From: a virus
Lineage: Duplodnaviria; Heunggongvirae; Uroviricota; Caudoviricetes
DNA length: 64,000 nucleotides
Strand: one strand, 5' to 3'
Virus record (IMG/VR): IMGVR_UViG_3300042991_000725
Coordinates: 59,632 to 123,631 of that record
Position numbers and translations under genes: made by a program. The notes under the pieces are model-generated. The model saw only the letters and a program-made list of their open reading frames with translations. It made no database searches and was not told the origin of the DNA. Numbering within the stretch: position 1 is the stretch's first letter; each line of letters opens with the position of its first letter. Below are positions 19,716-48,491 of this stretch, piece after piece.

Positions 19716-19788
19716 TGACGGCGGAGGGAATTGAACCCTCGACCCCCGGATTAAAAATCCGATGTTCTGCCAACTGAACTACGCCGTC
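19716..19788 (-). tRNA. tRNA-Lys (anticodon UUU)
   Basis: Minus-strand cloverleaf: acceptor GACGGCG/CGCCGTC+A, anticodon loop UU-UUU-AA, T-arm GGGTTCAATTCCC. Confidence 0.75.
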
Positions 19789-35514: not shown

Positions 35515-36189
35515 ATGAACACTGGAAAAGGCAAGTCTATAATAACGAATTTTGGATGTGATAAGTCGTGTCATTATTGTATTTGGAAATATTCACAACT
35601 GAGGAATTACAAAACTACAATAGACAATACAGACTGGGAAAAGCTATCGAAGTTCATAAAGGGCTCGGATAGCATAAGTATTTCTGGTGGCGGCGACCCT
35701 CTTTATAATATTGACGGAAATTGGGCATGGTTCAAGGAGTTCTTTACCAGGGCTAAATCCTATCATGTCAAACTTCACACCGCAGTTATTTTGCCACAAG
35801 ACAAAAGTTTTTATTATGGTAGCTTTAATAAGATTGCACTGCATCTGAATTATAAAGAATTCAAACACAATCTTGACAGGGTTTTTTCTCTACATGAGAA
35901 TATTAGGCTAGTTTTCGTATTGTCGGAGAACGATTTGTCCAAGAACAGGGTAAGTGAGATATGCGAAATATGTGCTGATAAGTCTGTTCAGTTAAGTTTT
36001 AGAGAATTGTTTATCCCTGATAAGACAAAGTCTAGATTGCAGAGTGTGCTTGAAATTAATACGAAGGAAATAGTTAAGAGCAAATACAGTTCTTTCGCCA
36101 AATTTGTCGAACAGGCCGACTATAATATTTATTATATGCCAGACAATTCTATAAGAACAAAATTTTTGGAGAATGCCCATGCAATTTAA
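35515..36189 (+). CDS. QueE-like radical SAM protein (7-carboxy-7-deazaguanine synthase family, B. subtilis type)
   Basis: 224 aa; FGCDKSCHYC (cf. QueE GCDYSCSWC) and ISISGGGDPL (cf. VTISGGNP SAM-binding loop). Confidence 0.5.
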   Translation: MNTGKGKSIITNFGCDKSCHYCIWKYSQLRNYKTTIDNTDWEKLSKFIKGSDSISISGGGDPLYNIDGNWAWFKEFFTRAKSYHVKLHTAVILPQDKSFYYGSFNKIALHLNYKEFKHNLDRVFSLHENIRLVFVLSENDLSKNRVSEICEICADKSVQLSFRELFIPDKTKSRLQSVLEINTKEIVKSKYSSFAKFVEQADYNIYYMPDNSIRTKFLENAHAI

Positions 36190-37165
36190 GAATGCTTTTT
36201 ATCTCCCAAGCGGTAGGGTATTTTTGCTTGATTGTGACGGATTTCCTGTTGAATGTACAGAAATGAGAGATGTTACTGTCGGTGGGAAGGACCATGAAGA
36301 AGTACGAACATCTAACGACCCGCATGTGATTTGGAATCACTTAAAGCCATATAATGAAAAATGGCTGCTTACAGTATCTACGCAGAAGGGCTGCCCACAT
36401 AAATGCAAGTTTTGTGATGTCGCAGGGCTTGGCTTTAGCGGCAATTTAACTGTTGAACAAATCTTGGAGCAAGTTTCTTTCATCCTGGATGCTTCTCCGT
36501 ATGTGCAAAATTGCTCTAAAGTCAAAATAGGATTTGCTAGAATGGGAGAGCCGTCACATAATTTGACAAATGTTCTTAATGCCATGAAGATGCTACCATC
36601 AATCTCTTCTAGCAAAAGTAGAGTTTTCACATGGCTGCCATGCTTTAATAGTATTCTGCCCAAGAAAACAATAGATGGACGGTCAGCATACGATGTGATA
36701 GAAAGAGTTTTAGCTATGAAGGATTGGTATAATGGATTCCTCCACTTCCAAATCTCGGCAAATTCTACAGACGAGAATATTAGGAAGCAGCTTTTCGGTG
36801 GTGCCGATGTCTTGGGCTTGGAAGAAATTGTCAAATATATCAATGGAAAGTCGATTACTAATAGGACAATTACGCTGAATTTTATAGTAATAGATGGAGT
36901 CCCTATTGATGTAAAATATCTAAAGAGTATTGGCGTTAATGGCAGCAAATTTAACATTAAGCTGATCCCATTAAACAATACGGAGCGCGGGATCATCAAT
37001 AACTTGAAGACATATGCCAATTATACCAATTATGATAAACTGATTGATTTGGGAGATGAAATACGGAAGGAAGGCATTCCTGTTGTCGTAGATGCTATAG
37101 CAAAATGTGAAGAGGCCGGGTTATGTTGCGGACAGTTGGCTCATATATATGCGAAAAATAATTAA
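36173..37165 (+). CDS. RlmN/Cfr-family radical SAM RNA methyltransferase
   Basis: STQKGCPHKCKFCDVAGLGFSGNLTVEQILEQV parallels RlmN [33 protein letters not shown]; C-terminal CCGQLA parallels the RlmN ACGQLAG (second catalytic Cys). Confidence 0.7.
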   Translation: MPMQFKNAFYLPSGRVFLLDCDGFPVECTEMRDVTVGGKDHEEVRTSNDPHVIWNHLKPYNEKWLLTVSTQKGCPHKCKFCDVAGLGFSGNLTVEQILEQVSFILDASPYVQNCSKVKIGFARMGEPSHNLTNVLNAMKMLPSISSSKSRVFTWLPCFNSILPKKTIDGRSAYDVIERVLAMKDWYNGFLHFQISANSTDENIRKQLFGGADVLGLEEIVKYINGKSITNRTITLNFIVIDGVPIDVKYLKSIGVNGSKFNIKLIPLNNTERGIINNLKTYANYTNYDKLIDLGDEIRKEGIPVVVDAIAKCEEAGLCCGQLAHIYAKNN

Positions 37166-37174: not shown

Positions 37175-37202
37175 TTGACAAAATCTGGTTTAGGTGTATA
37201 CT
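37175..37202 (+). promoter_or_regulatory. sigma70-type promoter (TTGACA-16-TATACT)
   Basis: TTGACA at 37175-37180 and TATACT at 37197-37202. Confidence 0.55.
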
Positions 37203-37208
37203 AATAAT

Positions 37209-37409
37209 AGCTTCTTACTCTTTTATAGGGGTGCGCTTTCCGTGAGATTGAAGCAATCCATATTTACCTATCTCGATATGGCCATTACGTCCCCCGGACT
37301 AGGGGAACGAACATGGTCAGTCCATCGAAATTTGGGTAGGAGAGTGATGGTGGGCTGAGGAAAACGGGAAAACCGAATTCCTCAACTCACCCACGAAAGT
37401 GGGTTTTTT
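37209..37409 (+). ncRNA. candidate ~200-nt structured small RNA / tRNA-operon leader
   Basis: No ORF; bounded by the promoter above and an intrinsic terminator. Internal hairpin CCCCGGACTAGGGG and long-range pairing CCTATCTCGATATGG / CCATCGA...GGTAGG. Confidence 0.4.
37386..37409 (+). terminator. rho-independent terminator
   Basis: CACCCACGAAAGTGGG + TTTTTTG. Confidence 0.6.
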
Positions 37410-37428
37410 GTTTGTAGTAAAAAATCGT

Positions 37429-37504
37429 TCTGGGGTAGCTCAGCTGGTAGAGCGACGGACTGTTAATCCGTTTGTCGCAGGTTCAAATCCTGCTCCCAGA
37501 GCCA
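37429..37504 (+). tRNA. tRNA-Asn (GUU)
   Basis: Acceptor TCTGGGG/TCCCAGA, anticodon loop CU-GUU-AA, T-arm GGTTCAAATCC, CCA encoded. Confidence 0.8.
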
Positions 37505-37511
37505 AAATTAT

Positions 37512-37583
37512 CAGGGTGTGGGCCAATGGCTGGCCACCAGTCTTGGGCACTGGGTCATGCAGGTTCGACTCCTGTCACCCTGA
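37512..37583 (+). tRNA. tRNA-Pro (UGG)
   Basis: Acceptor CAGGGTG/CACCCTG, anticodon stem CCAGT/ACTGG, loop CU-UGG-GC. Confidence 0.75.
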
Positions 37584-37595
37584 TTTAATATGTGC

Positions 37596-37666
37596 GTCCC
37601 TGTGATCTAATGGCAGGATACCAGATTTTCAGTCTGGGTGCAAGGGTTCGATCCCCTTCAGGGATA
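37596..37666 (+). tRNA. tRNA-Glu (UUC)
   Basis: Acceptor GTCCCTG/CAGGGAT, anticodon loop UU-UUC-AG; D-arm TCTAATGGCAGGA homologous to bacterial tRNA-Glu. Confidence 0.75.
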
Positions 37667-37684
37667 TTTGTTCTTTGAAAATGT

Positions 37685-37758
37685 AGCCCATTAACTCAAC
37701 TGGCTAGAGTGCCACTTTTACACGGTGGAAGTTGAAGGCTCGAATCCTTCATGGGCTA
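37685..37758 (+). tRNA. tRNA-Val (UAC)
   Basis: Acceptor AGCCCAT/ATGGGCT, anticodon loop UU-UAC-AC, T-arm GAAGGCTCGAATCCTTC. Confidence 0.7.
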
Positions 37759-37764
37759 TTTAAT

Positions 37765-37838
37765 GCTCGGTTAGTGTAGTGACAACACGCGACACTGTCG
37801 ATGTCGAGTCAGGAGTTTAATTCTCCTACCGAGTGCCA
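37765..37838 (+). tRNA. tRNA-Asp (GUC)
   Basis: Anticodon stem CGACA/TGTCG, loop CU-GUC-GA; CCA encoded. Confidence 0.8.
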
Positions 37839-37865
37839 TTTTTTTCGGGCTATGTGCCCACCAAT

Positions 37866-37936
37866 GGGGACATAACATAATGGGAATGTGTTACCCTTGC
37901 AAGGTAAAAATGTGGTTTCGACTACCACTGTCTCCA
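37866..37936 (+). tRNA. tRNA-Ala (UGC)
   Basis: Acceptor GGGGACA/TGTCTCC with G3:U70 identity pair; anticodon loop CU-UGC-AA. Confidence 0.8.
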
Positions 37937-37985
37937 TTATCTTTTATTTTTTGCTCTTTGACAATATTGCTGTAAAACGTAACAC

Positions 37986-38073
37986 AGAAGCGTAGCCTAA
38001 CGGTAAGGCAGCACTTTGCTAAAGTGCCATGCGTCCACAAGGCGTATTGAGAGTTCAATTCTCTCCGCTTCTG
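37986..38073 (+). tRNA. tRNA-Ser (GCU)
   Basis: Type II; acceptor AGAAGCG/CGCTTCT+G, anticodon loop UU-GCU-AA, long variable arm. Confidence 0.8.
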
Positions 38074-38095
38074 CTTTATAAAACTAGGAGCCCAT

Positions 38096-38815
38096 ATGCA
38101 AACTAATACAATGAAGTGCGAATATGGATGTGGGAATAACGCTTTATACAAGTTGCCTAAAGGCAGATGGTGTTGTTCGACGAGCTTTAATTCGTGTCCT
38201 GCTTCCAGAGAAAAAAACAGAATAGCCGTTCTCGATAGCTATAAAAATGGAAGATCTGGTTATTGGAAAGGCAAAAGTTATCCAAGTTTTGGCAAAAAAT
38301 ATGAAGAAATGTACGGCAAGGACAGGTCTGAAATAATCAAAGATAAAATATCAAAGTCTTTGATTGGCGTTTCTCCGGGCAGAGCAAGTACGGACGAGAA
38401 AGAACAAATAAGAAGATCTCGCATTTCTGCAAAAATGATTCTTAATAAATGTGGCGGGTATAGGTACGGTAGCGGCAGAGGTAAAAAGGGAACATATAAG
38501 GGGTATTGGTGTGATAGTAGTTGGGAGCTAGCCTATGTTATTTATTGTTTAGATCATAGTATCAAAATAAGTAGAAATTGGACAAGGTTTCCTTATGTTT
38601 ATAAAGGCAAGCAGCGTTTTTGGATTCCAGACTTTGTTAAAGAAGATACCTATATCGAGATTAAAGGATATGAGACAAAAAAGGATGAAGCAAAATTCAA
38701 TTATTTTAAAAAGAGCTTGATTATTCTTAAAGAAAAAGAAATGCGTTTTATACTAAGTTATGTTACTGATAAATACGGAAAGGACTATATTTCAATGTAC
38801 GAAAGGAAGAGTTGA
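38096..38815 (+). CDS. zinc-finger + PD-(D/E)xK nuclease domain protein (putative homing endonuclease inside the tRNA array)
   Basis: 239 aa; AGGAG SD; N-terminal CEYGCG...CCSTSFNSC zinc cluster; C-terminal WCDSSWE...PDFVKEDTYIEIKG (D...E-x-K); stop overlaps the 5' end of tRNA-Ser(UGA) by 11 nt. Confidence 0.5.
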   Translation: MQTNTMKCEYGCGNNALYKLPKGRWCCSTSFNSCPASREKNRIAVLDSYKNGRSGYWKGKSYPSFGKKYEEMYGKDRSEIIKDKISKSLIGVSPGRASTDEKEQIRRSRISAKMILNKCGGYRYGSGRGKKGTYKGYWCDSSWELAYVIYCLDHSIKISRNWTRFPYVYKGKQRFWIPDFVKEDTYIEIKGYETKKDEAKFNYFKKSLIILKEKEMRFILSYVTDKYGKDYISMYERKS

Positions 38816-38896
38816 CCACAGTGGGTGCGTGGCCTTGTCTTGAAAACAAGTGCCCATGAAAGTGGGCTGAGAGTTCAAATCTCTCCTCTTCCTCCA
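38805..38896 (+). tRNA. tRNA-Ser (UGA)
   Basis: Type II; acceptor GGAAGAG/CTCTTCC, anticodon stem CTTGT/ACAAG, loop CU-UGA-AA, T-arm GAGAGTTCAAATCTCTC; end taken with encoded CCA. Confidence 0.7.
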
Positions 38897-38898
38897 CT

Positions 38899-38968
38899 GC
38901 CCCGTGGTGTAATTGGAAACGCGCTGGCCTTTGGAGCCGGAGTCTCCCGTTCAAATCGGGACGGGGCA
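38899..38968 (+). tRNA. tRNA-Gln (UUG)
   Basis: Acceptor GCCCCGT/ACGGGGC+A, anticodon loop CU-UUG-GA. Confidence 0.7.
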
Positions 38969-38977
38969 ATTTTATAC

Positions 38978-39049
38978 TGCCCAGTGGTGTAATAGAAACA
39001 TATCGGACTCTGACTCCGAAGACTTCAGGTGCAAGTCCTGACTGGGCAA
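38978..39049 (+). tRNA. tRNA-Gln (CUG)
   Basis: Acceptor TGCCCAG/CTGGGCA+A, anticodon stem TCGGA/TCCGA, loop CU-CUG-AC. Confidence 0.7.
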
Positions 39050-39058
39050 TTTTTATTC

Positions 39059-39142
39059 GCAAGTGTAGCCCGTTATGGAGGCGGATGAGCCTGTAGAGCT
39101 CATATCTTCGGATCATAGAAGGTTCGATTCCTTCCACTTGCA
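39059..39142 (+). tRNA. tRNA-Tyr (GUA)
   Basis: Type II; acceptor GCAAGTG/CACTTGC+A, anticodon stem TGAGC/GCTCA, loop CU-GUA-GA. Confidence 0.8.
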
Positions 39143-39153
39143 TTTTATATTGT

Positions 39154-39226
39154 CGCAGGGTCGCCAAATGGTAAGGCTCCAGACTCATAATCTGGCAATT
39201 TGCTGGTTCGATTCCGGCCCCTGCTA
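39154..39226 (+). tRNA. tRNA-Met or Ile2 (CAU)
   Basis: Anticodon stem CCAGA/TCTGG, loop CU-CAU-AA. Elongator-type (no 3 G-C pairs in anticodon stem); a C1:U72 mismatch is read at the acceptor end, so termini are approximate. Confidence 0.65.
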
Positions 39227-39237
39227 TTTATTTTTAT

Positions 39238-39310
39238 GGTGGCTATAGTGTAGAGGACTGCACGTCTGACTGTGGCTCAGGAAGTCTGGGATCGTTACCC
39301 AGTAGTCACC
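39238..39310 (+). tRNA. tRNA-His (GUG)
   Basis: Encoded extra G(-1) opposite discriminator C73 (His hallmark); acceptor GTGGCTA/TAGTCAC, anticodon loop CU-GUG-GC. Confidence 0.8.
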
Positions 39311-39321
39311 CCATTTTTCTT

Positions 39322-39394
39322 GCGAGTGTAGCTGAATAAGACTAGCACCGGATTTTTAATCCGGGATATGTGGGTGCGAATCCCATCACTCGCA
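39322..39394 (+). tRNA. tRNA-Lys (UUU)
   Basis: Acceptor GCGAGTG/CACTCGC+A, anticodon stem CCGGA/TCCGG, loop UU-UUU-AA. Confidence 0.8.
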
Positions 39395-39399
39395 CTTTT

Positions 39400-39472
39400 G
39401 CGTCTGTAGCTCAATTGGCAGAGCATTTGGTTCTTACCCAAGGGGTTGGAGGTTCAAGTCCTCCCAGACGCA
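39400..39472 (+). tRNA. tRNA-Lys (CUU)
   Basis: Acceptor GCGTCTG/CAGACGC+A, anticodon loop UU-CUU-AC. Confidence 0.7.
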
Positions 39473-39480
39473 TTTTATTT

Positions 39481-39553
39481 GCTGGTGTAGCTTAATGGTT
39501 AAAGCGTCAGCCTTATAAGCTGAAAATCGGTGGTCCAATTCCACCCACCAGTA
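39481..39553 (+). tRNA. tRNA-Ile (UAU)
   Basis: Acceptor GCTGGTG/CACCAGT+A, anticodon stem TCAGC/GCTGA, loop CU-UAU-AA (AUA decoder). Confidence 0.65.
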
Positions 39554-39560
39554 CCATTCT

Positions 39561-39636
39561 GCGCTCATGGTGTAATGGATAACATTTCTGACTACGAATC
39601 AGAAGAGTGCAGGTTCGAGTCCTGCTGGGCGTACCA
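39561..39636 (+). tRNA. tRNA-Arg (ACG)
   Basis: Anticodon stem TCTGA/TCAGA, loop CU-ACG-AA; CCA encoded. Confidence 0.75.
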
Positions 39637-39637
39637 T

Positions 39638-39709
39638 GTGCCTGTGGTGTAATGGATAACATGTCACGGTCCTAACGTGTCGATTTGGGTTCAATTCCCA
39701 ACGGGCATA
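39638..39709 (+). tRNA. tRNA-Arg (CCU)
   Basis: Anticodon stem CACG/CGTG, loop GU-CCU-AA; T-arm TTGGGTTCAATTCCCAA. Confidence 0.65.
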
Positions 39710-39735
39710 TTTACTTTGAAAGGCGGTGATAACCA

Positions 39736-40326
39736 ATGGTTCTAAATGACGCAACTCTTGTTTTGAATAAAGGATGGGTCCCAATCGGCTTCGCTTCAGT
39801 GCGCAGGGCTATGGAACTGTTGGTTACTGATAGGGCACAGGCGATTCTCCCAGACGACTATTCTGTCCATAATTTTGATTCTTGGGCAGATTTAAGGCTG
39901 TTAGACGATGAGATACGAATCCGTACTGTAAGTTTGGAAATAAAAGTTCCTGAGATCATCAGGCTAAATACATATACCGGAGTTCCGCAACACAAACTCA
40001 AGCTTTCTAGGCGCAATCTTTTCCGCAGGGATAATTGTACGTGTCAGTATTGCGGCAAACAACTCAAGAGCGAGGATGCAACTATTGACCATGTCATTCC
40101 GAGAGCATTGGGTGGTAAAACGACTTGGCTCAATTGTGTTATCGCCTGTCTCAAGTGCAATAGCAAAAAAGACGACAAGACGCTGGCTCAGTGTGGGATG
40201 AGATTGATAAAAATTCCTGTTGCACCTAATGGAATGGCAAGTATACGGATTCCTGTATTTAAGAAGAGGATCAGTTGGGATAAGTTTATTTCAGAAGCGT
40301 ATTGGAATATTGAACTTCTTGAATAG
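39736..40326 (+). CDS. HNH endonuclease (putative homing endonuclease inside the tRNA array)
   Basis: 196 aa; CQYCGK...DHVIPRALGG...N...CLKCN HNH motif with flanking zinc-ligand Cys pairs. Confidence 0.75.
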   Translation: MVLNDATLVLNKGWVPIGFASVRRAMELLVTDRAQAILPDDYSVHNFDSWADLRLLDDEIRIRTVSLEIKVPEIIRLNTYTGVPQHKLKLSRRNLFRRDNCTCQYCGKQLKSEDATIDHVIPRALGGKTTWLNCVIACLKCNSKKDDKTLAQCGMRLIKIPVAPNGMASIRIPVFKKRISWDKFISEAYWNIELLE

Positions 40327-40358
40327 GAGTTAAGCAGACAAACGTTTCGAATAAGCAC

Positions 40359-40431
40359 ATGCCCATAGTCTAATTGGATAGGCGCCAGACTTCTAATCTG
40401 GTTTATGAGGGTCCGAGTCCCTCTGGGCATA
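40359..40431 (+). tRNA. tRNA-Arg (UCU)
   Basis: Acceptor ATGCCCA/TGGGCAT+A, anticodon stem CCAGA/TCTGG, loop CU-UCU-AA. Confidence 0.75.
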
Positions 40432-40433
40432 TT

Positions 40434-40507
40434 GCGGGTGTGGCTCAGTGGTAGAGCGCGACGTTGCCATCGTCGATGCGAGGGTCCGATTCCCTTCACT
40501 CGCTCCA
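40434..40507 (+). tRNA. tRNA-Gly (GCC)
   Basis: Acceptor GCGGGTG/CACTCGC, anticodon stem CGACG/CGTCG, loop UU-GCC-AU; CCA encoded. Confidence 0.8.
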
Positions 40508-40508
40508 A

Positions 40509-40582
40509 GCGCCTGTGGTGAAATGGCATCACGAGAGTCTTCCAAACTCTAGTCCCGGGTTCAATCCCCGGTAGGCGCTCCA
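40509..40582 (+). tRNA. tRNA-Gly (UCC)
   Basis: Anticodon stem AGAGT/ACTCT, loop CU-UCC-AA; CCA encoded. Confidence 0.8.
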
Positions 40583-40594
40583 TTTTTTTTATAC

Positions 40595-40665
40595 GCTTGG
40601 ATAGCTCAACGGTAAGGCATCTGGTTGAAGCCCAGAAAATGCAAGTTCAATTCTTGCTCCAAGCA
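40595..40665 (+). tRNA. tRNA-Phe (GAA)
   Basis: Acceptor GCTTGGA/TCCAAGC+A, anticodon stem TCTGG/CCAGA, loop UU-GAA-GC. Confidence 0.8.
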
Positions 40666-40670
40666 TTTAT

Positions 40671-40744
40671 ACGGGTGTAGTGTAGTGAAAACATTTCAGA
40701 CTCCAAATCTGAAGACAGGGGTTCGATTCCTCTCGCCCGTGCCA
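40671..40744 (+). tRNA. tRNA-Trp (CCA)
   Basis: Anticodon stem TCAGA/TCTGA, loop CU-CCA-AA; CCA end encoded. Confidence 0.75.
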
Positions 40745-40847
40745 TGCTATAAATCGTATGTGGGGAGAATAAAAATGATCGTTAGAGCTGGAATGAATTA
40801 TGCCGATGCTGGAAGAATTGGATATTTGAAAGGGAAAAGTTATTAAT

Positions 40848-40919
40848 GCCCGATAAGCGTAGATGCCGACGCAGGACCCTTGTAAGGTTCAGAGGCTGGT
40901 TGAAGTCCAGCATCGGGCT
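40848..40919 (+). tRNA. tRNA-Thr (UGU)
   Basis: Acceptor GCCCGAT/ATCGGGC, anticodon stem GGACC/GGTTC, loop CU-UGU-AA, T-arm GCTGGTTGAAGTCCAGC. Confidence 0.7.
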
Positions 40920-40930
40920 TTTATTTATAC

Positions 40931-41001
40931 GCTGTTATAGCTTAGTGGCAAAGCAGGGCTTTCGTAAAGCTCAGACGTTGGTTCGATTCCAACTAGCAGC
41001 T
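40931..41001 (+). tRNA. tRNA-Thr (CGU)
   Basis: Acceptor GCTGTTA/TAGCAGC, anticodon loop UU-CGU-AA. Confidence 0.7.
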
Positions 41002-41006
41002 TTTGT

Positions 41007-41079
41007 GCCGCCATAGCTCAGTTAGAAGAGCGCATTCTTGGTAAGAATGAGGTCGTGAGTGCAAATCTCGCTGGTGGCT
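41007..41079 (+). tRNA. tRNA-Thr (GGU)
   Basis: Acceptor GCCGCCA/TGGTGGC, anticodon stem CATTC/GAATG, loop UU-GGU-AA. Confidence 0.75.
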
Positions 41080-41084
41080 TTTAT

Positions 41085-41156
41085 GCACGAGTAGCCAAGT
41101 GGCTAAGGCGGCAAGCTGCAACCTTGCTAATATGGGTTCGATTCCCATCTCGTGCT
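41085..41156 (+). tRNA. tRNA-Cys (GCA)
   Basis: Acceptor GCACGAG/CTCGTGC, anticodon stem GCAAG/CTTGC, loop CU-GCA-AC. Confidence 0.8.
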
Positions 41157-41163
41157 TATTTGT

Positions 41164-41249
41164 GGCCAAGTGGCGGAATGGCAGACGCGAGAGTTTCAAA
41201 AGCTCTTGTCCATACACGGACACTGTGGGTTCAAGTCCCACCTTGGCTA
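41164..41249 (+). tRNA. tRNA-Leu (CAA)
   Basis: Type II with long variable arm; anticodon stem AGAGT/GCTCT, loop UU-CAA-AA; T-arm GTGGGTTCAAGTCCCAC. Confidence 0.7.
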
Positions 41250-41255
41250 TTTTAT

Positions 41256-41329
41256 GGCGCCATAGCCCAACGGCAGGAGGCATCTCGCTTAGAACGAGAG
41301 CAGTGCTGGTTCGAGTCCGGCTGGCGTTA
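41256..41329 (+). tRNA. tRNA with anticodon UAG (Leu-type anticodon, atypical short variable arm)
   Basis: Anticodon stem TCTCG/CGAGA, loop CU-UAG-AA; variable region only 5 nt (GCAGT); T-arm GCTGGTTCGAGTCCGGC; acceptor has two G:U pairs. Confidence 0.55.
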
Positions 41330-41342
41330 TTTTTTCAAATCT

Positions 41343-41414
41343 GCGGATATAGCTCAGCAGTAGAGTTCTTGTCTGATAAGCAAGAGGTCGAAGGTGCGAT
41401 TCCTTCTATCCGCA
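41343..41414 (+). tRNA. tRNA-Ile (GAU)
   Basis: Acceptor GCGGATA/TATCCGC+A, anticodon stem CTTGT/GCAAG, loop CU-GAU-AA. Confidence 0.8.
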
Positions 41415-41495
41415 TTTTATATTTTGTAATAGTGGCAGCGATTGCCTTTAACTATATCAATGCTACTTGTGGCACCAGTGAATTGCCAACTGCCA

Positions 41496-41765
41496 TCAGT
41501 TGATCTTTAACCATTCGTCCGGGAAGCCCATTAACCACAGGCTTAATCTCGGATTGATGATATCAGACCTGGGAGGAGATTTCTCTCTGTAGTAGATTGC
41601 ACGTAGCAACGCGTCCGTCCGTTTGCGTTTCCCGCTTTGTTTCGCCATTCCGGGAGTGTTTTCCCAGTCTCGAGCTTTGTCATTGACGCCGTCGTTCTTC
41701 TGGATCAATTGGAGAAGGGCATTGAGGGATTCACACATTGAAAAGCTCCATCGTTTGTTCACCAT
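41496..41765 (-). CDS. hypothetical protein with C-terminal GFPD motif (possible C5-MTase C-terminal remnant)
   Basis: ORF 41496..41867 overlaps the upstream MTase; likely starts at an internal Met; ends ...NPRLSLWLMGFPDEWLKIN resembling the (E)CxRLMGFPDxF segment of C5-MTases; GC-rich (~50%). Confidence 0.3.
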   Translation of the reverse strand: MVNKRWSFSMCESLNALLQLIQKNDGVNDKARDWENTPGMAKQSGKRKRTDALLRAIYYREKSPPRSDIINPRLSLWLMGFPDEWLKIN

Positions 41766-42717
41766 TCGCCTTTGCATGCGATATCTTTTGTTCGCTGAGA
41801 CTATTTCTTTCCCAAAACACACCGTCAGAATACCCTTGAATGCTCGAATCTGCTTTAGCTGCTTCAAGTCGCTTATGCGTCCAGCAGCAATACTCCCGGT
41901 TCAGTTCTATGCCGCAATACCGGCGTCCGAGTTTCTTTGCAGCGACAGCCGTTGTGCCGCTTCCGAGGAAGGGATCGAAAACAAAATCGCGGGGGAGTGA
42001 ACTGGCGAGAATTAGTTTCGCGATCAATTTCTCAGGCTTCTGTGTGGGATGGTCCGTGTTTTCCGGCATGGACCAGAAGGGTATCGTTATGTCAGACCAC
42101 AAGTTCGATGGATGGGTGAGTCTGTAGTTCCCATTGTCCGATTCTTCCCAATCCTTTGGTTGCCCGTCCTCGTGCCGATACGGTGCGATAACTTTCCGTT
42201 TTAGCTTAACGGCGTCCACGTTAAAGGTGTAATCGTCGTCCCGTGTGCAGAACCAGATGTCCTCTGTGTTGTTCTTCCAGTTTGCTTTTGCGCCACGACC
42301 CTTTTCGCGTTCCCACGTAATCCTGTTGCGGACATGTAGATGTCTGTCCAGAACAGGGAAAACCAGCGTGGAGGTGCGCCAATCACTGCATACGTACACG
42401 GACGACCTTGCTCGGAGTAAGGGCGTCATGGCTGACAACATACTCTCGAACCATGACGCATACTCCTCCGACTCCTGTGCGTGGAACACATGCCCGTTGA
42501 AATCCTTTGTCAGATTGTACGGGGGGTCAAGGATGAGGAGATCTACAAAGGCACGGGGAAGCAACGGGCACGCATCCCGGAAATCCTGATTGATCACGCG
42601 GTCCGTCACGTCTTCTACGGTAGCGGGGTGCGACAAGTGCAGTAGCGTGGAGGACAAATCAGACAACTCCTCCGCAGTGCATGTCAGCGTTCTATTCCGT
42701 GGTGAGCGTGTCTTCAT
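41731..42717 (-). CDS. DNA N6-adenine/N4-cytosine methyltransferase (beta-class), GC-rich foreign-looking gene
   Basis: LILDPPYNL (motif IV) then FDPFLGSGTTAVAA (motif I); ~50% GC against a ~37% background; overlaps the upstream dcm-like gene by 4 nt. Confidence 0.75.
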   Translation of the reverse strand: MKTRSPRNRTLTCTAEELSDLSSTLLHLSHPATVEDVTDRVINQDFRDACPLLPRAFVDLLILDPPYNLTKDFNGHVFHAQESEEYASWFESMLSAMTPLLRARSSVYVCSDWRTSTLVFPVLDRHLHVRNRITWEREKGRGAKANWKNNTEDIWFCTRDDDYTFNVDAVKLKRKVIAPYRHEDGQPKDWEESDNGNYRLTHPSNLWSDITIPFWSMPENTDHPTQKPEKLIAKLILASSLPRDFVFDPFLGSGTTAVAAKKLGRRYCGIELNREYCCWTHKRLEAAKADSSIQGYSDGVFWERNSLSEQKISHAKANGEQTMELFNV

Positions 42718-43676
42718 AATTTTCTGGGCTTTGGTTGTACAATCTGGGCTTTTACAGGTTGCTTTTTTCCCAGAGCATTGATCATTTCATGAGCTATAGA
42801 TTTTATTACAGGGACTGCGACTGAATTTCCTGCAACCTTTCTCACCTGTGAATAAGGAATGTTTATAATAAAATCATCAGGGAATCCTTGTAATCTAAGC
42901 ATTTCTCTTCCTGTTAGCCTTCTCGTTCCATTAACAACAAGATAGTTGTAGCTCCCACCAGCTCTTAATGCACACGAGTACGGGAGTGCTGAGATGTTCC
43001 CGCCAATATTTTCGTGCCATATAGAAGGATATGGAGGGGTTCCTTTTACGGCTTGAAGTCTTTTCTCCTTCAACCTTTCAGAAATAAAATAATTTGATGG
43101 GACATCTATTTCTTTTTCAAGAAATTCTGTAAGGGGCCTATAAAATCCTATTGGTTTTGGAAAATCCAAATGGATTTTATCTTTAAATCCTACAATGTAA
43201 ATTCGTTCCCTTTTTTGAGGTACACCGAAGTCAAGCGCGTTCAAAACCTTGTGGTAAACGGTATACCCTATCTCATTGAGTTTTTCTAAAATTATTTTAA
43301 ATGTTCTCCCTGAATCATGTGTTGTTAAACGTTTTACATTTTCAAGTAAAAAGGCTGTTGGTTTTTTGACTTTCAAAATCGACTCAATATTAAAGAACAA
43401 TGTTCCTCTTGTATCAGAAAAACCTAATCCTTTACCTGCTATGCTAAATGGTTGGCATGGGAAACCAGCAAGTAGAATGTCATGGTCAGGAATGTCTTCA
43501 GGTTTAATCAAATTTATATCACCGAAGGGTTTTTCTTTAAAATTTGCTTCGTACATAGCCTGTGCGTATTTATCCCATTCAGATGAAAAAACATTCTCGC
43601 AATCATAACATTGAAATCCTAAGCGAATTCCGCCAATACCGGCAAAAAGGTCTATAGTTCTATATTTATTCGTCAT
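42714..43676 (-). CDS. DNA (cytosine-5)-methyltransferase
   Basis: DLFAGIGG (I), GFPCQPFS (IV), ENV (VI), QKRERIYIVG (VIII), RLQGFPDDF, GNSVAVPV (X). Confidence 0.85.
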   Translation of the reverse strand: MTNKYRTIDLFAGIGGIRLGFQCYDCENVFSSEWDKYAQAMYEANFKEKPFGDINLIKPEDIPDHDILLAGFPCQPFSIAGKGLGFSDTRGTLFFNIESILKVKKPTAFLLENVKRLTTHDSGRTFKIILEKLNEIGYTVYHKVLNALDFGVPQKRERIYIVGFKDKIHLDFPKPIGFYRPLTEFLEKEIDVPSNYFISERLKEKRLQAVKGTPPYPSIWHENIGGNISALPYSCALRAGGSYNYLVVNGTRRLTGREMLRLQGFPDDFIINIPYSQVRKVAGNSVAVPVIKSIAHEMINALGKKQPVKAQIVQPKPRKL

Positions 43677-45802: not shown

Positions 45803-46100
45803 TTTCCGTCCTCTTTTTTCTTATCCATAATTTGCATATTCCAAACTGATTAATTCGTCTTCCGTTTGTCCAATGTTCCCACATGGCCCTTTGTTCTTTA
45901 AGCATCTGTTGCTCTGCCCTATTAAACGGTTCATTCATTTCTACTGATCCGCATAATGGACGCTCTCCGTTGTTTGCTGAACAAAAACACTTGCTATTTA
46001 TATCTAGGTCTTTGTATTCAAAAAACCACTTACAATTCCAACAGCCATCTTGTTTTTTATACGACCTATCTAATTTATAGAGCTTTGTTTGTTTTGCCAT
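45783..46100 (-). CDS. Cys-rich hypothetical protein
   Basis: 105-aa ORF. Confidence 0.4.
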   Translation of the reverse strand: MAKQTKLYKLDRSYKKQDGCWNCKWFFEYKDLDINSKCFCSANNGERPLCGSVEMNEPFNRAEQQMLKEQRAMWEHWTNGRRINQFGICKLWIRKKRTENEDTKK

Positions 46101-48288: not shown

Positions 48289-48491
48289 TTTTTGCCCCCG
48301 TCTGTATGCTTTAATACAAGTGCATTATAAATAGAGTCGTTATTAATGTCTGAACTATAGTTCAAATATTCCTTCTTCGTCCGCTTATAGAATAGCTTTA
48401 TATTATCCCCATATATTTTTCTAATATCGCTGGAAACGCTCCATAACTTTTTAACAGCTTTTCTAATTATCTTTGCTTTTTTTTCGTTCAT
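48285..48491 (-). CDS. hypothetical protein
   Basis: 68-aa basic ORF. Confidence 0.35.
   Translation of the reverse strand: MNEKKAKIIRKAVKKLWSVSSDIRKIYGDNIKLFYKRTKKEYLNYSSDINNDSIYNALVLKHTDGGKK

What the first reader, a model, noticed from the sequence alone, without database searches (positions are those of the whole stretch)
37429..41414. 32-gene tRNA array covering all 20 amino acids, interrupted by two nuclease genes, with atypical members
Hand-folded cloverleaves give 32 plus-strand tRNAs (plus Leu-UAA and Lys-UUU elsewhere). Two nuclease-domain proteins sit inside the array, a zinc-finger/PD-(D/E)xK protein (38096..38815, stop overlapping tRNA-Ser) and an HNH protein (39736..40326); such genes are typical tRNA-cluster invaders. 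Notable members are tRNA-His with genomically encoded G(-1), tRNA-Ile(UAU), a CAU tRNA that could be Met or lysidine-Ile, and a tRNA with anticodon UAG but a 5-nt (type I) variable arm (41256..41329), unlike canonical bacterial tRNA-Leu. The last could be a degenerate Leu tRNA or be charged differently. Some tRNAs encode CCA and others do not.
Basis: seen in the sequence. Interest (0 to 1): 0.55.

Follow-up and report, generated by a model that had tools for sequence, protein, structure and literature searches.

The report
Thirty-gene phage tRNA array with nucleases
This 4-kb stretch is a real, near-complete set of 30 transfer-RNA genes of a large phage-like element, invaded by two mobile nuclease genes; its oddest member, a leucine tRNA lacking the usual long arm, belongs to a widespread but little-noticed family rather than being a one-off.

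Summary
Window 37429..41414 holds 30 plus-strand tRNA genes, not 32: 29 by ARAGORN plus Thr(UGU) at 40848..40919, found only by Rfam. They carry 30 different anticodons and cover all 20 amino acids if the CAU tRNA is Met. Two nuclease genes interrupt the array.

- **HNH gene:** 39736..40326 is confirmed by Pfam.
- **Second nuclease:** 38096..38815 is a zinc-finger plus T7-endonuclease-I-like PD-(D/E)xK protein. Its last 11 nt overlap tRNA-Ser(UGA). Relatives in unrelated phages also sit directly 5' of a tRNA-Ser gene (33 of 48 downstream tRNAs, P about 1e-17).
- **Other details:** the His G-1, Ile(UAU), the CAU tRNA and mixed CCA encoding (9 of 30) are confirmed.
- **tRNA(UAG):** 41256..41329 really has a 5-nt variable loop. 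It keeps every known bacterial leucine identity element. It also belongs to a family of short tRNA-Leu genes found in at least 119 viral and 120 bacterial contigs. All family members have Leu anticodons and A73, and their stems covary.

It is therefore almost certainly a leucine tRNA, not a recoding device. Elbow nucleotides are non-canonical in 13 of 30 tRNAs, most with matching changes on both sides. Overall this is a new member of a known kind, with some instructive details.

The parts
37175..37202 (+). Promoter-like site, TTGACA-16-TATACT, 11 of 12 matches. It is a candidate start of the array transcript.
   Evidence: This is a consensus match only; the region's total promoter count is not above the shuffles.
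37205..37412 (+). Structured 208-nt leader ending in a hairpin plus T-run (37389..37404), directly before the first tRNA. Its function is unknown.
   Evidence: MFE -75.6 kcal/mol, z -4.2, 0 of 200 shuffles fold as well. Terminator-like site. No Rfam family.
37429..37504 (+). tRNA-Asn(GUU), CCA encoded.
   Evidence: (71 bits).
37512..37583 (+). tRNA-Pro(UGG), no CCA. It is the only Pro tRNA in the array.
   Evidence: (53.9 bits).
37596..37666 (+). tRNA-Glu(UUC), G1.U72, no CCA.
   Evidence: (59.6 bits).
37685..37758 (+). tRNA-Val(UAC), T loop CUCGAAU (C54), no CCA.
   Evidence: (61.1 bits).
37765..37838 (+). tRNA-Asp(GUC), CCA encoded. Elbow variant A19 with U56 (D loop AGUGACA, T loop UUUAAUU).
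   Evidence: (57.2 bits).
37866..37936 (+). tRNA-Ala(UGC) with G3.U70, no CCA.
   Evidence: (64.7 bits).
37986..38073 (+). tRNA-Ser(GCU), long variable arm, no CCA.
   Evidence: (58 bits).
38096..38815 (+). 239-aa free-standing endonuclease: N-terminal Cys4 zinc finger plus a C-terminal T7-endonuclease-I-like PD-(D/E)xK domain (E144, D179, E188, K190). Its last 11 nt overlap tRNA-Ser(UGA).
   Evidence: PHROG 'endonuclease' families. More than 1187 homologues. Invariant residues. Profile match to PDB T7 endonuclease I at E 7.5e-6. PF05367 in 19 of 30 relatives and NUMOD3 in 6 of 30. Relatives sit immediately 5' of tRNA-Ser.
38805..38896 (+). tRNA-Ser(UGA), CCA encoded, U73. The D region is unusual, with 2 extra nt, and the tRNA-Sec model scores better than the general tRNA model.
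   Evidence: RF01852 42.2 bits, below its 47-bit gathering score..
38898..38969 (+). tRNA-Gln(UUG), U1:A72, no CCA.
   Evidence: 55.7 bits.
38978..39049 (+). tRNA-Gln(CUG). Elbow variant A18 with G55.
   Evidence: (60.5 bits).
39059..39142 (+). tRNA-Tyr(GUA), bacterial type II with a long variable arm.
   Evidence: (39.8 bits).
39154..39226 (+). CAU-anticodon tRNA: Met, possibly initiator-like. C1xU72 mismatch, G2:C71, C3:G70, A73. Its anticodon stem lacks the three G:C pairs of an initiator.
   Evidence: (53.3 bits).
39238..39313 (+). tRNA-His(GUG) with encoded G-1 (39238) opposite C73, CCA encoded. T loop AUCGUUA, an A54/U58 swap.
   Evidence: (46 bits).
39322..39394 (+). tRNA-Lys(UUU). Elbow variant A18 with G55.
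   Evidence: (61.2 bits).
39400..39472 (+). tRNA-Lys(CUU).
   Evidence: 69.9 bits.
39481..39556 (+). tRNA-Ile(UAU), CCA encoded, T loop UCCAAUU (C55).
   Evidence: (74 bits).
39561..39636 (+). tRNA-Arg(ACG), CCA encoded.
   Evidence: 63.5 bits.
39638..39709 (+). tRNA-Arg(CCU).
   Evidence: 52.1 bits.
39736..40326 (+). 196-aa HNH endonuclease, free-standing.
   Evidence: PF14279 at 62.2 bits and PF01844 at 56.1 bits. phrog_16726. Relatives occur in many large phages in varied contexts.
40359..40431 (+). tRNA-Arg(UCU), T loop UCCGAGU (C55).
   Evidence: (58 bits).
40434..40507 (+). tRNA-Gly(GCC), CCA encoded, C55.
   Evidence: (62.7 bits).
40509..40582 (+). tRNA-Gly(UCC), CCA encoded.
   Evidence: 61.1 bits.
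40595..40665 (+). tRNA-Phe(GAA).
   Evidence: 64.3 bits.
40671..40744 (+). tRNA-Trp(CCA), CCA encoded. A19 is not compensated at position 56.
   Evidence: (60.6 bits).
40810..40843 (+). 34-nt relic matching the endonuclease gene at 38248..38281 (29 of 34 nt, in frame), inside the only long spacer (103 nt).
   Evidence: Local alignment score 21.5 against shuffles of 9.5+-1.1, reached by 0 of 500. The protein profile does not detect it.
40848..40919 (+). tRNA-Thr(UGU), missed by ARAGORN. The elbow pair is swapped: C19 with G56 (D loop AGAUGCCG, T loop UUGAAGU).
   Evidence: RF00005 45.5 bits in the lax scan. Hand fold on the sequence..
40931..41001 (+). tRNA-Thr(CGU).
   Evidence: 65.8 bits.
41007..41079 (+). 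tRNA-Thr(GGU). Elbow variant A18 with G55.
   Evidence: (58.6 bits).
41085..41156 (+). tRNA-Cys(GCA), U73.
   Evidence: (65.9 bits).
41164..41249 (+). tRNA-Leu(CAA), canonical type II with a long variable arm.
   Evidence: (53.2 bits).
41256..41329 (+). Short (type I) tRNA-Leu(UAG): 3-bp D stem, D loop CAACGGCAGGA, variable loop GCAGU, A73, G1.U72.
   Evidence: (49.8 bits).
41343..41414 (+). tRNA-Ile(GAU). Elbow variant A18 with G55.
   Evidence: (69 bits).
14303..14383 (-). Solitary tRNA-Leu(UAA), type II. It completes UUR decoding.
   Evidence: 60.4 bits.
19716..19788 (-). Solitary second tRNA-Lys(UUU) with a canonical elbow. Its anticodon stem-loop is identical to the array copy.
   Evidence: (73.9 bits).
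33022..34230 (+). Context: RtcB RNA ligase, in the same rightward gene block as the array.
   Evidence: PF01139 at 373.8 bits. phrog_1075.
36173..37165 (+). Context: radical-SAM protein distantly related to the RlmN/Cfr RNA methyltransferases, immediately upstream of the array.
   Evidence: TIGR00048 at E 5.7e-17, below its cutoff. PF04055.

Best explanation
**What it is.** This is a genuine 30-gene tRNA operon of a large phage or phage-like element.

**Decoding capacity.**
- It carries 30 different anticodons.
- There is one U34 tRNA for each of the Ala, Pro, Val, Ser-UCN and Leu-CUN boxes, three Thr, two Gly, three Arg, and Ile(GAU) plus Ile(UAU).
- Together with Leu(UAA) elsewhere in the window, the set could decode 60 of 61 sense codons if U34 reads all four bases. 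CGG has no reader.

**Expression (inferred).** I infer that the genes are transcribed rightward as one or a few precursors. Host RNase P and 3' processing enzymes would then cut them, and a CCA-adding enzyme would complete the 21 genes that lack CCA.

**Purpose (inferred).** The most likely role is to keep viral translation running when host tRNAs are depleted or cleaved. This fits the RNA-repair genes in the same window: RtcB, an ATP-dependent RNA ligase and a polynucleotide-kinase-like protein.

**The nuclease genes.** Both are selfish free-standing homing-type endonucleases.
- The HNH gene is a generalist.
- The zinc-finger/T7-endonuclease-I-like gene belongs to a family that sits exactly at the 5' edge of tRNA-Ser genes. 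It probably cuts nuclease-free tRNA-Ser loci and is copied in by repair, carrying neighbouring tRNA genes with it.

**The UAG tRNA.** It is a leucine tRNA of a widespread short-variable-arm family, charged by host LeuRS, which does not need the long arm. It serves as the array's only CUN decoder.
For: **Shown**
- There are 30 tRNAs with full cloverleaves.
- The anticodons are 30 different ones.
- Spacers are 1-27 nt, except at the two ORFs, one 49-nt spacer and one 103-nt spacer.
- All genes lie on one strand, at the end of a rightward block. GC skew is positive over 30-42 kb and leftward genes begin at 41496.
- RNA-repair genes are present: RtcB, an RNA ligase passing the TIGR02306 cutoff and a PNK-like kinase.

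**Nucleases**
- HNH is supported.
- The endonuclease-I-like assignment is supported.
- Of 80 viral loci with a relative, 48 have a tRNA starting within 150 nt downstream, 47 of them on the same strand. 33 of the 48 are tRNA-Ser, against 14% Ser overall (P 1e-17).
- The ORF stop lies -9 to +54 nt from the tRNA-Ser start in 29 of 32 loci.
- The same placement occurs in huge-phage genomes and on a 670-kb contig.
- A relic of a second copy lies at 40810..40843.

**Leu(UAG)**
- The best database matches are annotated 76-78-nt tRNA-Leu genes.
- The D-arm motif occurs in at least 119 viral contigs. 123 of 127 matches lie in tRNAs, all with Leu anticodons and all 74-79 nt long.
- Across 115 unique family sequences, A73 is 100%, the variable loop is NCAGU, 99% of stem cells are paired, and there are 3-6 pair types per acceptor, anticodon and T-stem position; the three D-stem pairs were fixed by the search motif.
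- In a sample not selected on Leu, 12 of 36 phage Leu genes are short, against 1 of 54 Ser and 0 of 7 Tyr.
- E. coli LeuRS needs A73, A14, A15-U48, G18G19 and A20a, but not the long arm (PMC9976931). All of these are present in 41256..41329.

**Literature**
- Phage tRNAs counter tRNA-cleaving defences (PMC10264068, PMC11555353, PMC13096335).
- SegB in the T4 tRNA cluster is a precedent (PMC2330249).
Against: - No expression, processing or charging data exist for this sequence.
- The promoter is only a consensus match, and the region's promoter count equals the shuffles. A terminator-like hairpin lies between it and the first tRNA.
- No structural phage gene was found among about 40 ORFs scanned, so 'phage' is inferred from gene content and relatives.
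- No close relative of the array was found: megablast against phages found none, and exact-pattern scans of viral and metagenome contigs found none. Conservation of this particular array is therefore untested.
- The window protein 38096..38815 has no Pfam hit on its own, and the fold search gave no significant hit.
- Homing activity and the target site are inferred only from gene position.
- CUA is one of the two rarest Leu codons here (RSCU 0.48). The Leu(UAG) tRNA only makes sense as a four-codon reader, and that depends on an unknown U34 modification state.
Confidence: 0.78

Rival explanations
1. The UAG-anticodon tRNA is charged with an amino acid other than leucine, or acts as a recoding device for CUN codons, as in the yeast mitochondrial CUN-to-Thr reassignment.
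For: - It lacks the long variable arm that reviews describe as universal for Leu tRNAs outside animal mitochondria (PMC9976931).
- Its nearest in-array relative is Arg(ACG), at 72% identity.
Against: - It has the complete E. coli Leu identity set: A73, A14, A15-U48, G18G19 and A20a.
- Its D arm is nearly the same as that of the two type II Leu tRNAs in the window.
- Family members carry six different anticodons, all of them Leu, and none carries any other. This fits an anticodon-blind LeuRS and does not fit a reassignment.
- Nothing in the window's codon usage suggests avoidance or special use of CUN.
Confidence: 0.04
2. The atypical members are decaying pseudogenes in an array under relaxed selection. 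These include the short Leu, Thr(UGU) with C19/G56, His with A54/U58, Ser(UGA) with its odd D region, the A18/G55 set and the C55 set.
For: - 11 of 30 T loops depart from UUC at positions 54-56, against 9-12% in background phage tRNAs (binomial P 5e-5 to 5e-4).
- Trp has an uncompensated A19.
- Ser(UGA) is missed by the general tRNA model at gathering.
- ARAGORN misses Thr(UGU).
Against: - All stems are intact and every member scores at least 39.8 bits.
- The departures are mostly paired changes: A18 with G55 in 4 of 4 cases, A19 with U56, C19 with G56, and A54 with U58.
- The A18/G55 combination recurs in unrelated phages: 24 of 26 UGC T loops go with an AG D loop.
- No anticodon is duplicated, so losing any member would open a decoding gap.
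Confidence: 0.08
3. The array is not viral. It would instead be a horizontally transferred 'L-array' tRNA unit on a plasmid, integrative element or chromosome, like those of cyanobacteria and mycobacteria.
For: - No virion gene was found in the window.
- L-arrays of up to 43 genes with an associated HNH gene are known in bacteria (PMC8421152).
- tRNA array units occur on M. avium linear plasmids (PMC12803027).
- The short Leu family also occurs in bacterial assemblies.
Against: - Many ORFs hit phage protein families, including RNR, SSB, PNK, RNA ligase, RtcB, DNA methyltransferases and amidoligases.
- The nearest relatives of both nucleases in the annotated collection are 485-595-kb uncultured phages.
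- The window shows dense small ORFs, low G+C and strand-block organisation.
Confidence: 0.12
4. The 38096..38815 protein is not a mobile homing endonuclease. It would be a functional partner of tRNA-Ser, for example a DNA junction-resolving or repair nuclease co-expressed with it, or a gene whose mRNA level is set by RNase P processing of the overlapping tRNA.
For: - T7 endonuclease I itself is a junction resolvase, not a homing enzyme (molecule names).
- The gene-to-tRNA-Ser junction is very tight (mode -1/0 nt), so tRNA 5' processing would cut the mRNA near its stop codon.
Against: - The distribution is patchy across unrelated genomes, while the insertion point stays conserved.
- NUMOD3 modules, typical of homing enzymes, occur in 6 of 30 relatives.
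- A relic of a second copy lies within the same array.
- 32 of 80 relatives have no tRNA within 150 nt downstream, so the protein does not depend on tRNA-Ser.
Confidence: 0.12

Closest known systems
T4/T6 tRNA gene cluster with the GIY-YIG homing endonuclease SegB (PMC2330249; PMC13096335)
   Same: - A free-standing endonuclease gene is embedded in a phage tRNA cluster.
- It is expected to cut within tRNA-gene DNA and to drag flanking tRNA genes along.
- The tRNA region acts in counter-defence.
   Different: - The nuclease folds here are HNH and T7-endonuclease-I-like PD-(D/E)xK, not GIY-YIG.
- The array has 30 genes rather than 8-10.
- SegB neighbours show a wide range of isotypes, whereas the family here is strongly tied to the 5' edge of tRNA-Ser.
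T5-type and huge-phage tRNA arrays (PMC10264068; PMC7162821)
   Same: - Large lytic-phage arrays cover most or all amino acids.
- They are proposed to replace host tRNAs cut by defence nucleases.
- The nearest relatives of both nucleases are in 485-595-kb uncultured phages.
   Different: - No sequence-level relative of this array was found.
- The atypical features here are mainly in the elbow and the variable region, not in the anticodon loops stressed for T5.
Bacterial long tRNA arrays (L-arrays) with a linked HNH gene (PMC8421152)
   Same: - Dozens of tRNA genes lie in one operon.
- An HNH endonuclease is associated.
- The arrays spread horizontally.
   Different: - L-arrays sit in cellular genomes or plasmids and are induced by translational stress.
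- The gene context here is phage-like.
Animal mitochondrial tRNA-Leu, and engineered E. coli tRNA-Leu variants without the long arm (PMC9976931)
   Same: Leucine tRNAs that work without a long variable arm. Identity rests on A73, A14 and D/T-loop tertiary contacts.
   Different: - The family here is natural and found in phage and bacterial assemblies.
- It keeps a full-size Leu-type D arm and a conserved NCAGU variable loop.
T7 endonuclease I (PDB 1m0d, 1fzr, 2pfj; Pfam PF05367)
   Same: It shares the catalytic core pattern E...PD...(E)xK. The profile match is E 7.5e-6 over the PDF...ExKG segment.
   Different: - The window protein has an added N-terminal Cys4 zinc finger and helical linker.
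- It has no Pfam hit by itself.
- The fold search was not significant.
- Its genomic behaviour is that of a mobile gene, not a replication or packaging resolvase.

Membership tests
tRNA (Rfam RF00005), all 30 array members | Covariance-model score above the gathering score (29 bits), with a full-length match. | tested here: met
   - 27 members pass at gathering.
- Thr(UGU) scores 45.5 bits in the lax scan.
- Ser(UGA) is reported only under the clan sibling RF01852, at 42.2 bits against a 47-bit gathering score, and rests mainly on ARAGORN.
- Strictly, 29 of 30 are met and 1 is inconclusive.
Canonical bacterial type II tRNA-Leu | Long variable arm (stem-loop of more than 10 nt). | tested here: not met
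   The variable region of 41256..41329 is 5 nt, GCAGU. The two other Leu genes have 13-17 nt.
Canonical bacterial type II tRNA-Leu | LeuRS identity set: A73, A14, A15-U48, G18G19, A20a (E. coli; PMC9976931). | tested here: met
   D loop CAACGGCAGGA after a 3-bp stem, variable loop ending in U48, and discriminator A.
Short-arm (type I) tRNA-Leu family, as delimited here | D arm UAGCCCAA(N1-2)GGCAGGAGGC, 5-nt variable loop NCAGU, A73, a Leu anticodon and a length of 74-79 nt. | tested here: met
   The window sequence has all of these features. The family comprises 115 unique sequences. The D arm was the search key, so its conservation is by construction; the other features are independent.
Bacterial initiator tRNA-fMet (for the CAU tRNA) | Mismatch at 1:72, with G2:C71 and C3:G70. 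| tested here: met
   The acceptor stem is CGCAGGG/CCCUGCU, giving C1xU72, G2:C71 and C3:G70. That these are formylation determinants is from my own knowledge of the E. coli system.
Bacterial initiator tRNA-fMet (for the CAU tRNA) | Three consecutive G:C pairs at 29-31:39-41, and A11:U24. | tested here: not met
   The anticodon stem is CCAGA/UCUGG, with only G30:C40, and the D stem has C11:G24.
tRNA-Ile2 (CAU modified to lysidine) | Recognition by TilS; lysidine at position 34. | not testable with these tools
   No isotype-specific models were available. The array already has Ile(UAU) for AUA, which makes an Ile2 role unnecessary but does not exclude it.
HNH endonuclease (Pfam PF01844 / PF14279) | Domain score above the curated cutoff. 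| tested here: met
   62.2 bits against a 27.5-bit cutoff, and 56.1 bits against a 21.4-bit cutoff.
PD-(D/E)xK nuclease, T7 endonuclease I-like (PF05367) | Sequence match to the family. | tested here: inconclusive
   - The window protein alone has no Pfam hit.
- 19 of 30 close relatives hit PF05367 at E<=0.1, best 4.2e-6.
- The profile matches four T7 endonuclease I PDB sequences at E 7.5e-6 to 1.8e-4.
PD-(D/E)xK nuclease, T7 endonuclease I-like (PF05367) | Catalytic residues: an acidic residue in the first helix, then PD...(D/E)xK. | tested here: met
   E144, P178-D179 and E188-I189-K190 are invariant in 30 sequences and align to the PDF...ExKG segment of T7 endonuclease I.
PD-(D/E)xK nuclease, T7 endonuclease I-like (PF05367) | Restriction-endonuclease-like fold. 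| tested here: inconclusive
   - The AF2 model has pLDDT 85.5.
- The best Foldseek PDB hits are nucleases of that fold class (Bax1, PvuRts1I, AF1548, BstYI), but E is at least 0.04.
Free-standing homing endonuclease | Site-specific cleavage of the nuclease-free allele, and preferential inheritance. | not testable with these tools
   Support is only circumstantial: a conserved insertion point 5' of tRNA-Ser in unrelated genomes, NUMOD3 in some relatives, and a relic copy.
Bacterial-type tRNA-His | Genomically encoded G-1 opposite C73. | tested here: met
   G at 39238, C73 at 39310, CCA at 39311..39313.

The most novel reading that the evidence does not exclude
**The reading.** Short-arm tRNA-Leu genes make up about a third of phage tRNA-Leu genes in an unselected sample. 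Reviews say Leu tRNAs always have a long arm outside animal mitochondria. On this reading, the short genes are kept by phages and mobile elements as leucine tRNAs immune to defence nucleases that recognise or cut the long variable arm of type II tRNAs.

**Extension.** The compensated elbow changes in this array (A18/G55, C19/G56, A19/U56, A54/U58) would similarly remove handles used by host nucleases or modification enzymes.

**Link to the nuclease.** The tRNA-Ser-linked endonuclease-I-like nuclease would spread or amplify such counter-defence tRNA genes.

**Why only Leu.** Ser and Tyr cannot lose the arm because their synthetases need it. Leu would therefore be the only type II tRNA able to escape this way.
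Probability: 0.15. Interest if true: 0.7.

Novelty: new member of a known kind. Interest (0 to 1): 0.42.

Why it matters
Phage tRNA arrays are now seen as tools in an arms race over the host's tRNA pool. This array is an almost self-sufficient decoding set lying beside RNA-repair genes, so it is a good natural example. Three by-products reach beyond this window.

1. **Short-arm tRNA-Leu genes are common.** They occur in phages and in mobile or actinobacterial DNA, contrary to the usual statement that Leu tRNAs always have a long arm. This matters for tRNA annotation and for orthogonal tRNA design.
2. **A new tRNA-Ser-linked nuclease family.** A T7-endonuclease-I-like nuclease family is tied to the 5' edge of tRNA-Ser genes. 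It is a candidate new homing-endonuclease family with a defined target.
3. **Paired elbow changes.** Paired changes at the tRNA elbow (18:55, 19:56, 54:58) recur in phage tRNAs. They give natural tests of which elbow contacts translation really needs.

Tried and rejected
**Close relatives of the array.** None were found.
- megablast of the array against phages gave no match.
- An exact 31-nt scan with the Leu(UAG) sequence in viral contigs gave 0 hits.
- An exact 25-nt scan with the Thr(UGU) sequence in metagenome contigs gave 0 hits.
- The single-sequence endonuclease query in viral contigs gave 0 hits.
- The one relative of the upstream radical-SAM gene (63% identity, L003) has no tRNAs nearby.

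**Extra tRNAs to reach 32.**
- The lax Rfam scan added only Thr(UGU).
- ARAGORN at 80% threshold gave only overlapping or in-ORF artefacts.

**ARAGORN Ile(tat) at 5456..5531(-).** Rejected.

**Identity of the CAU tRNA.**
- BLAST to annotated phage tRNAs gave no annotated neighbours.
- Identity to in-array tRNAs, and to E. coli fMet/Met/Ile2 sequences recalled from memory, was uninformative at 0.60-0.71.

**Type II tRNA targeting.** The idea that bacterial Schlafen nucleases target type II tRNAs is not supported. [quoted passage not shown]

**Relic of a second endonuclease.** The protein profile does not see it. Only the DNA match supports it.

**Fold search for the endonuclease.** No significant hit.

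**G1.U72 excess.** The window has 22% against 11-17% background, which is ordinary.

**Prior descriptions.** Literature searches for the short phage tRNA-Leu family or the endonuclease/tRNA-Ser link found none in the held library. This is not proof that none exists.

Full report
**1. Checking the observation**

ARAGORN finds 29 plus-strand tRNA genes between 37429 and 41415. It also finds three elsewhere: Leu-UAA at 14303..14383(-), Lys-UUU at 19716..19788(-), and an Ile-UAU call at 5456..5531(-).

Rfam at gathering thresholds confirms 27 of the array genes and the two solitary Leu and Lys genes, at 40-74 bits. A lax-filter Rfam scan of 37300..41560 adds one tRNA that ARAGORN misses, at 40848..40919 (45.5 bits). 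It also shows that Ser(UGA) at 38805..38892 scores better with the tRNA-Sec model (42.2 bits, below its 47-bit threshold). Nothing else tRNA-like appears at E<=5.

Folded by hand on the sequence, 40848..40919 is Thr(UGU). The array therefore has 30 genes, not 32. The minus-strand Ile call at 5456 has no RF00005 match even at E<=10 in a 201-nt search, and only a 2-bp D stem. I do not count it.

The 30 genes carry 30 different anticodons and represent all 20 amino acids if CAU is Met.

Using 7-bp acceptor stems on the ARAGORN folds, CCA is encoded in nine genes: Asn, Asp, Ser-UGA, His, Ile-UAU, Arg-ACG, Gly-GCC, Gly-UCC and Trp. The other 21 end at the discriminator, usually followed by TTT(T)A.

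- His has G at 39238 opposite C73, plus CCA.
- ORF 38096..38815 overlaps tRNA-Ser(UGA) by 11 nt, with its stop codon formed by tRNA positions 9-11.
- The UAG tRNA at 41256..41329 has a 5-nt variable loop.

**2. Context**

G+C is 34-48%. The array closes a rightward gene block, and leftward genes begin at 41496.
- **Upstream on the same strand:** an SPFH protein, RtcB (PF01139, 374 bits), an N6/N4 DNA methyltransferase and two radical-SAM proteins. The one abutting the array is a distant RlmN/Cfr relative (TIGR00048, E 5.7e-17, below cutoff).
- **Downstream, convergent:** two DNA methyltransferases.
- **Elsewhere in the window:** an ATP-dependent RNA ligase that passes the TIGR02306 cutoff, a polynucleotide-kinase-like protein, RNR, SSB and amidoligases.

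No virion gene lies in the window, so 'phage' is an inference from gene content and from relatives in 485-595-kb uncultured phages. The same sequence occurs on an 11-kb Logan contig from SRR35210686. No close relative of the array was found.

**3. The UAG tRNA**

Its D arm is of the Leu type: a 3-bp stem GCC/GGC and an 11-nt loop CAACGGCAGGA. It nearly matches the D arms of the window's two long-arm Leu tRNAs. It has A73, A14, A15, G18G19, A20a and U48.

According to Giegé and Eriani (PMC9976931), these are the E. coli leucine identity elements, and the long arm and the anticodon are not required. [quoted passage not shown]

BLAST against annotated phages gave annotated short tRNA-Leu genes as the best hits.
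- Streptomyces phage SparkleGoddess has Leu(tag), 76 nt.
- Streptomyces phage Genie2 has Leu(caa), 76 nt.
- Microcystis phage Mwe-JY26 has Leu genes of 78 and 77 nt.

These genes share the D arm UAGCCCAA(N1-2)GGCAGGAGGC and a variable loop (A/G)CAGU.

Of 127 matches, 123 lie in ARAGORN tRNAs. All of these have Leu anticodons (CAA 45, UAG 45, GAG 16, UAA 10, CAG 6, AAG 1), and all are 74-79 nt long.

In 115-117 unique sequences:
- the discriminator is always A;
- the variable loop is 5 nt in all but one, with ..AGU invariant;
- 99% of stem cells are paired;
- there are 3-6 pair types per position in the acceptor, anticodon and T stems; the three D-stem pairs do not vary because the search motif fixed them.

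The D arm was the search key, so its conservation is by construction. The other features are independent evidence.

The same motif occurs in at least 120 bacterial contigs, mostly Actinomycetota. Again it lies only in short tRNAs with Leu anticodons (UAG in 77), often as the only tRNA in 8 kb.

In a sample of phage loci chosen for a different reason (the endonuclease), 12 of 36 unique tRNA-Leu genes are short, against 1 of 54 Ser and 0 of 7 Tyr.

The UAG tRNA is therefore a member of a common, structurally constrained family. The spread of anticodons fits an anticodon-blind LeuRS. The 'charged differently' and 'degenerate' readings are both unlikely.

I found no paper in the held library that describes this family. 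The genes are nevertheless already annotated as tRNA-Leu in GenBank.

**4. The two nucleases**

ORF 39736..40326 is an HNH endonuclease. Its relatives occur in many large phages in varied contexts, sometimes next to tRNAs, as in Arthrobacter phage Mimi, but often not.

ORF 38096..38815 has no Pfam hit itself but has more than 1187 homologues.
- In an alignment of 30, E144, P178, D179, F180, E188 and K190 are invariant. C8, C12, C27 and C34 are near-invariant.
- The profile matches T7 endonuclease I structures over the PDF...ExKG segment (E 7.5e-6).
- 19 of 30 relatives hit PF05367, and 6 hit NUMOD3.
- An AlphaFold model is confident (pLDDT 85.5), but Foldseek gives no significant PDB match. 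The top hits are restriction-endonuclease-like nucleases at E>=0.04.

The striking point is position. In uncultured huge phage LR745208 the homologue lies between Ser(GCU), Ser(CGA) and Ser(GGA), Ser(UGA). In three other homologue loci it directly precedes Ser(UGA).

Of 80 viral loci with a relative, 48 have a tRNA starting within 150 nt downstream, 47 of them on the same strand. Of the 48, 33 are tRNA-Ser, against 14% Ser among all tRNAs in those loci (P about 1e-17). Upstream neighbours show no bias.

The ORF stop lies -9 to +54 nt from the tRNA-Ser start in 29 of 32 cases. Most often the stop abuts the first tRNA base after a conserved ...YGKDFIxLYE end.

This is the signature of a free-standing homing-type gene with a fixed insertion point at the 5' edge of tRNA-Ser. 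It is analogous to SegB in the T4 tRNA cluster (PMC2330249), but with a different fold and a marked isotype preference. SegB neighbours show a wide range of isotypes (PMC13096335).

Because the tRNA 5' end lies inside the ORF, RNase P processing would cut the mRNA before its stop codon. That this limits nuclease expression is my inference only.

The one long spacer in the array (103 nt, between Trp and Thr-UGU) contains a 34-nt in-frame match to the nuclease gene: 29 of 34 nt, with 0 of 500 shuffles scoring as well. It is probably a relic of a second copy, although the protein profile does not detect it.

**5. Other atypical members**

Thirteen of the 30 tRNAs have non-canonical elbow nucleotides.
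- **A18 with G55:** Gln-CUG, Lys-UUU, Thr-GGU and Ile-GAU.
- **A19 with U56:** Asp.
- **C19 with G56:** Thr-UGU.
- **C55 with G18:** Ile-UAU, Arg-UCU and Gly-GCC.
- **A54 with U58:** His.
- **C54:** Val.
- **Uncompensated A19:** Trp.

Eleven of 30 T loops are not UUC at positions 54-56, against 9.4% and 12% in 1209 and 391 background phage tRNAs (P 5e-5 to 5e-4). In the background, UGC T loops go with AG D loops in 24 of 26 cases, so the 18:55 covariation is general.

The paired nature of the changes argues for function. Why this array has so many of them is unexplained.

The CAU tRNA has an initiator-like acceptor stem (C1xU72, G2:C71, C3:G70, A73) but an elongator-like anticodon stem and D stem. 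With Ile(UAU) present, an Ile2 role is unnecessary. Met, perhaps initiator-like, is the working call, and it remains unresolved.

Ser(UGA) has two extra nucleotides between the acceptor and D stems, and U73.

G1.U72 pairs (22%) are ordinary for phage tRNAs.

**6. How it most likely works**

The set has one U34 tRNA for each of five four-codon boxes. Together with Leu(UAA) elsewhere, it could read 60 of 61 sense codons if U34 reads all four bases. CGG has no reader. With restricted wobble, five NNC codons would also be missing.

Codon usage of 67 window ORFs favours AGA, AGG, ACA, CCA, GGA and AUA, all of which have cognate tRNAs. CUA is rare (RSCU 0.48) and CUU is common (1.61). Leu(UAG) therefore only makes sense as the general CUN reader.

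A near-complete set lying beside RtcB, an RNA ligase and a PNK-like kinase fits the current view. On that view, phage tRNAs and RNA repair keep translation going against tRNA-cleaving defences or host shut-off (PMC10264068, PMC11555353, PMC13096335). Transcription, processing and charging are all inferred.

A near-consensus promoter at 37175..37202 is followed by a strongly structured 208-nt leader (z -4.2) that ends in a terminator-like hairpin just before the first tRNA. Its role is unknown.

**7. Verdict**

The array is real and the description is mostly accurate. The count is 30, and the 'notable' members are either ordinary (His G-1, Ile-UAU) or belong to recurrent families (the short Leu).

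It is a new member of a known kind: large-phage tRNA arrays with embedded homing-type nucleases. The instructive by-products are the breadth of the short-arm Leu family, the nuclease family linked to tRNA-Ser, and the compensated elbow variants.

Noticed in passing
window 37175..37412: A near-consensus promoter (TTGACA-16-TATACT) is followed by a 208-nt stretch that folds far better than shuffles (z -4.2). It ends in a terminator-like hairpin 17 nt before the first tRNA. It has no Rfam family and could be an sRNA or a regulatory leader of the array.
   Followed up: partly
L127..L246 (bacterial genome contigs; e.g. L141 Dactylosporangium NZ_CP139171.1, L138 Micromonospora orduensis): The short-arm tRNA-Leu family also occurs in at least 120 bacterial assemblies, mostly Actinomycetota, with anticodon UAG in 77. 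In 72 loci it is the only tRNA within 8 kb. Whether these are prophage or island genes, or the cell's own tRNA-Leu(UAG), was not determined.
   Followed up: partly
window 37429..41414; background loci L008..L126 and L253..L332: D-loop 18/19 and T-loop 55/56 covary in phage tRNAs: A18 with G55, A19 with U56, C19 with G56. The window has 37% non-UUC T loops against 9-12% background. U55, U54 and G18 are targets of near-universal modification enzymes, so these tRNAs would escape those modifications.
   Followed up: partly
window 829..1863(-), 33022..34230(+), 48463..48993(-): The window holds three RNA-repair-type genes: an ATP-dependent RNA ligase of the DRB0094 family, RtcB, and a polynucleotide-kinase-like protein. 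Together they resemble a full tRNA-repair kit alongside the tRNA array.
   Followed up: partly
window 35515..36189, 36173..37165, 46075..47319(-): There are three radical-SAM proteins. The one directly upstream of the array is a distant RlmN/Cfr-type RNA methyltransferase relative. Another is of the B12-binding / MiaB-like type. They may be RNA-modifying enzymes, but no substrate is known.
   Followed up: no
window 19716..19788(-) versus 39322..39394(+): There are two Lys(UUU) genes with identical anticodon stem-loops but different bodies. The solitary copy has a canonical elbow and the array copy has A18/G55. tRNA-Lys(UUU) is a known target of PrrC and PARIS.
   Followed up: partly
window 5456..5531(-): ARAGORN calls a tRNA-Ile(UAU) with an encoded ACCA end and good acceptor, anticodon and T stems, but only a 2-bp D stem. 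The Rfam tRNA model does not match it. It may be a tRNA-like relic in an intergenic gap.
   Followed up: yes
window 34601..35422(+), 41731..42717(-), 42714..43676(-): Three DNA methyltransferase genes, two N6/N4 and one C5, flank the array region. This suggests heavy self-methylation against restriction.
   Followed up: no
window 1865..2926(-), 47490..48053(-): There are further nuclease-like ORFs. One has a C-terminal Vsr-like endonuclease domain (E 1.4e-5), and the other hits phrog_20876/452 nuclease families. They may be additional mobile endonucleases.
   Followed up: no
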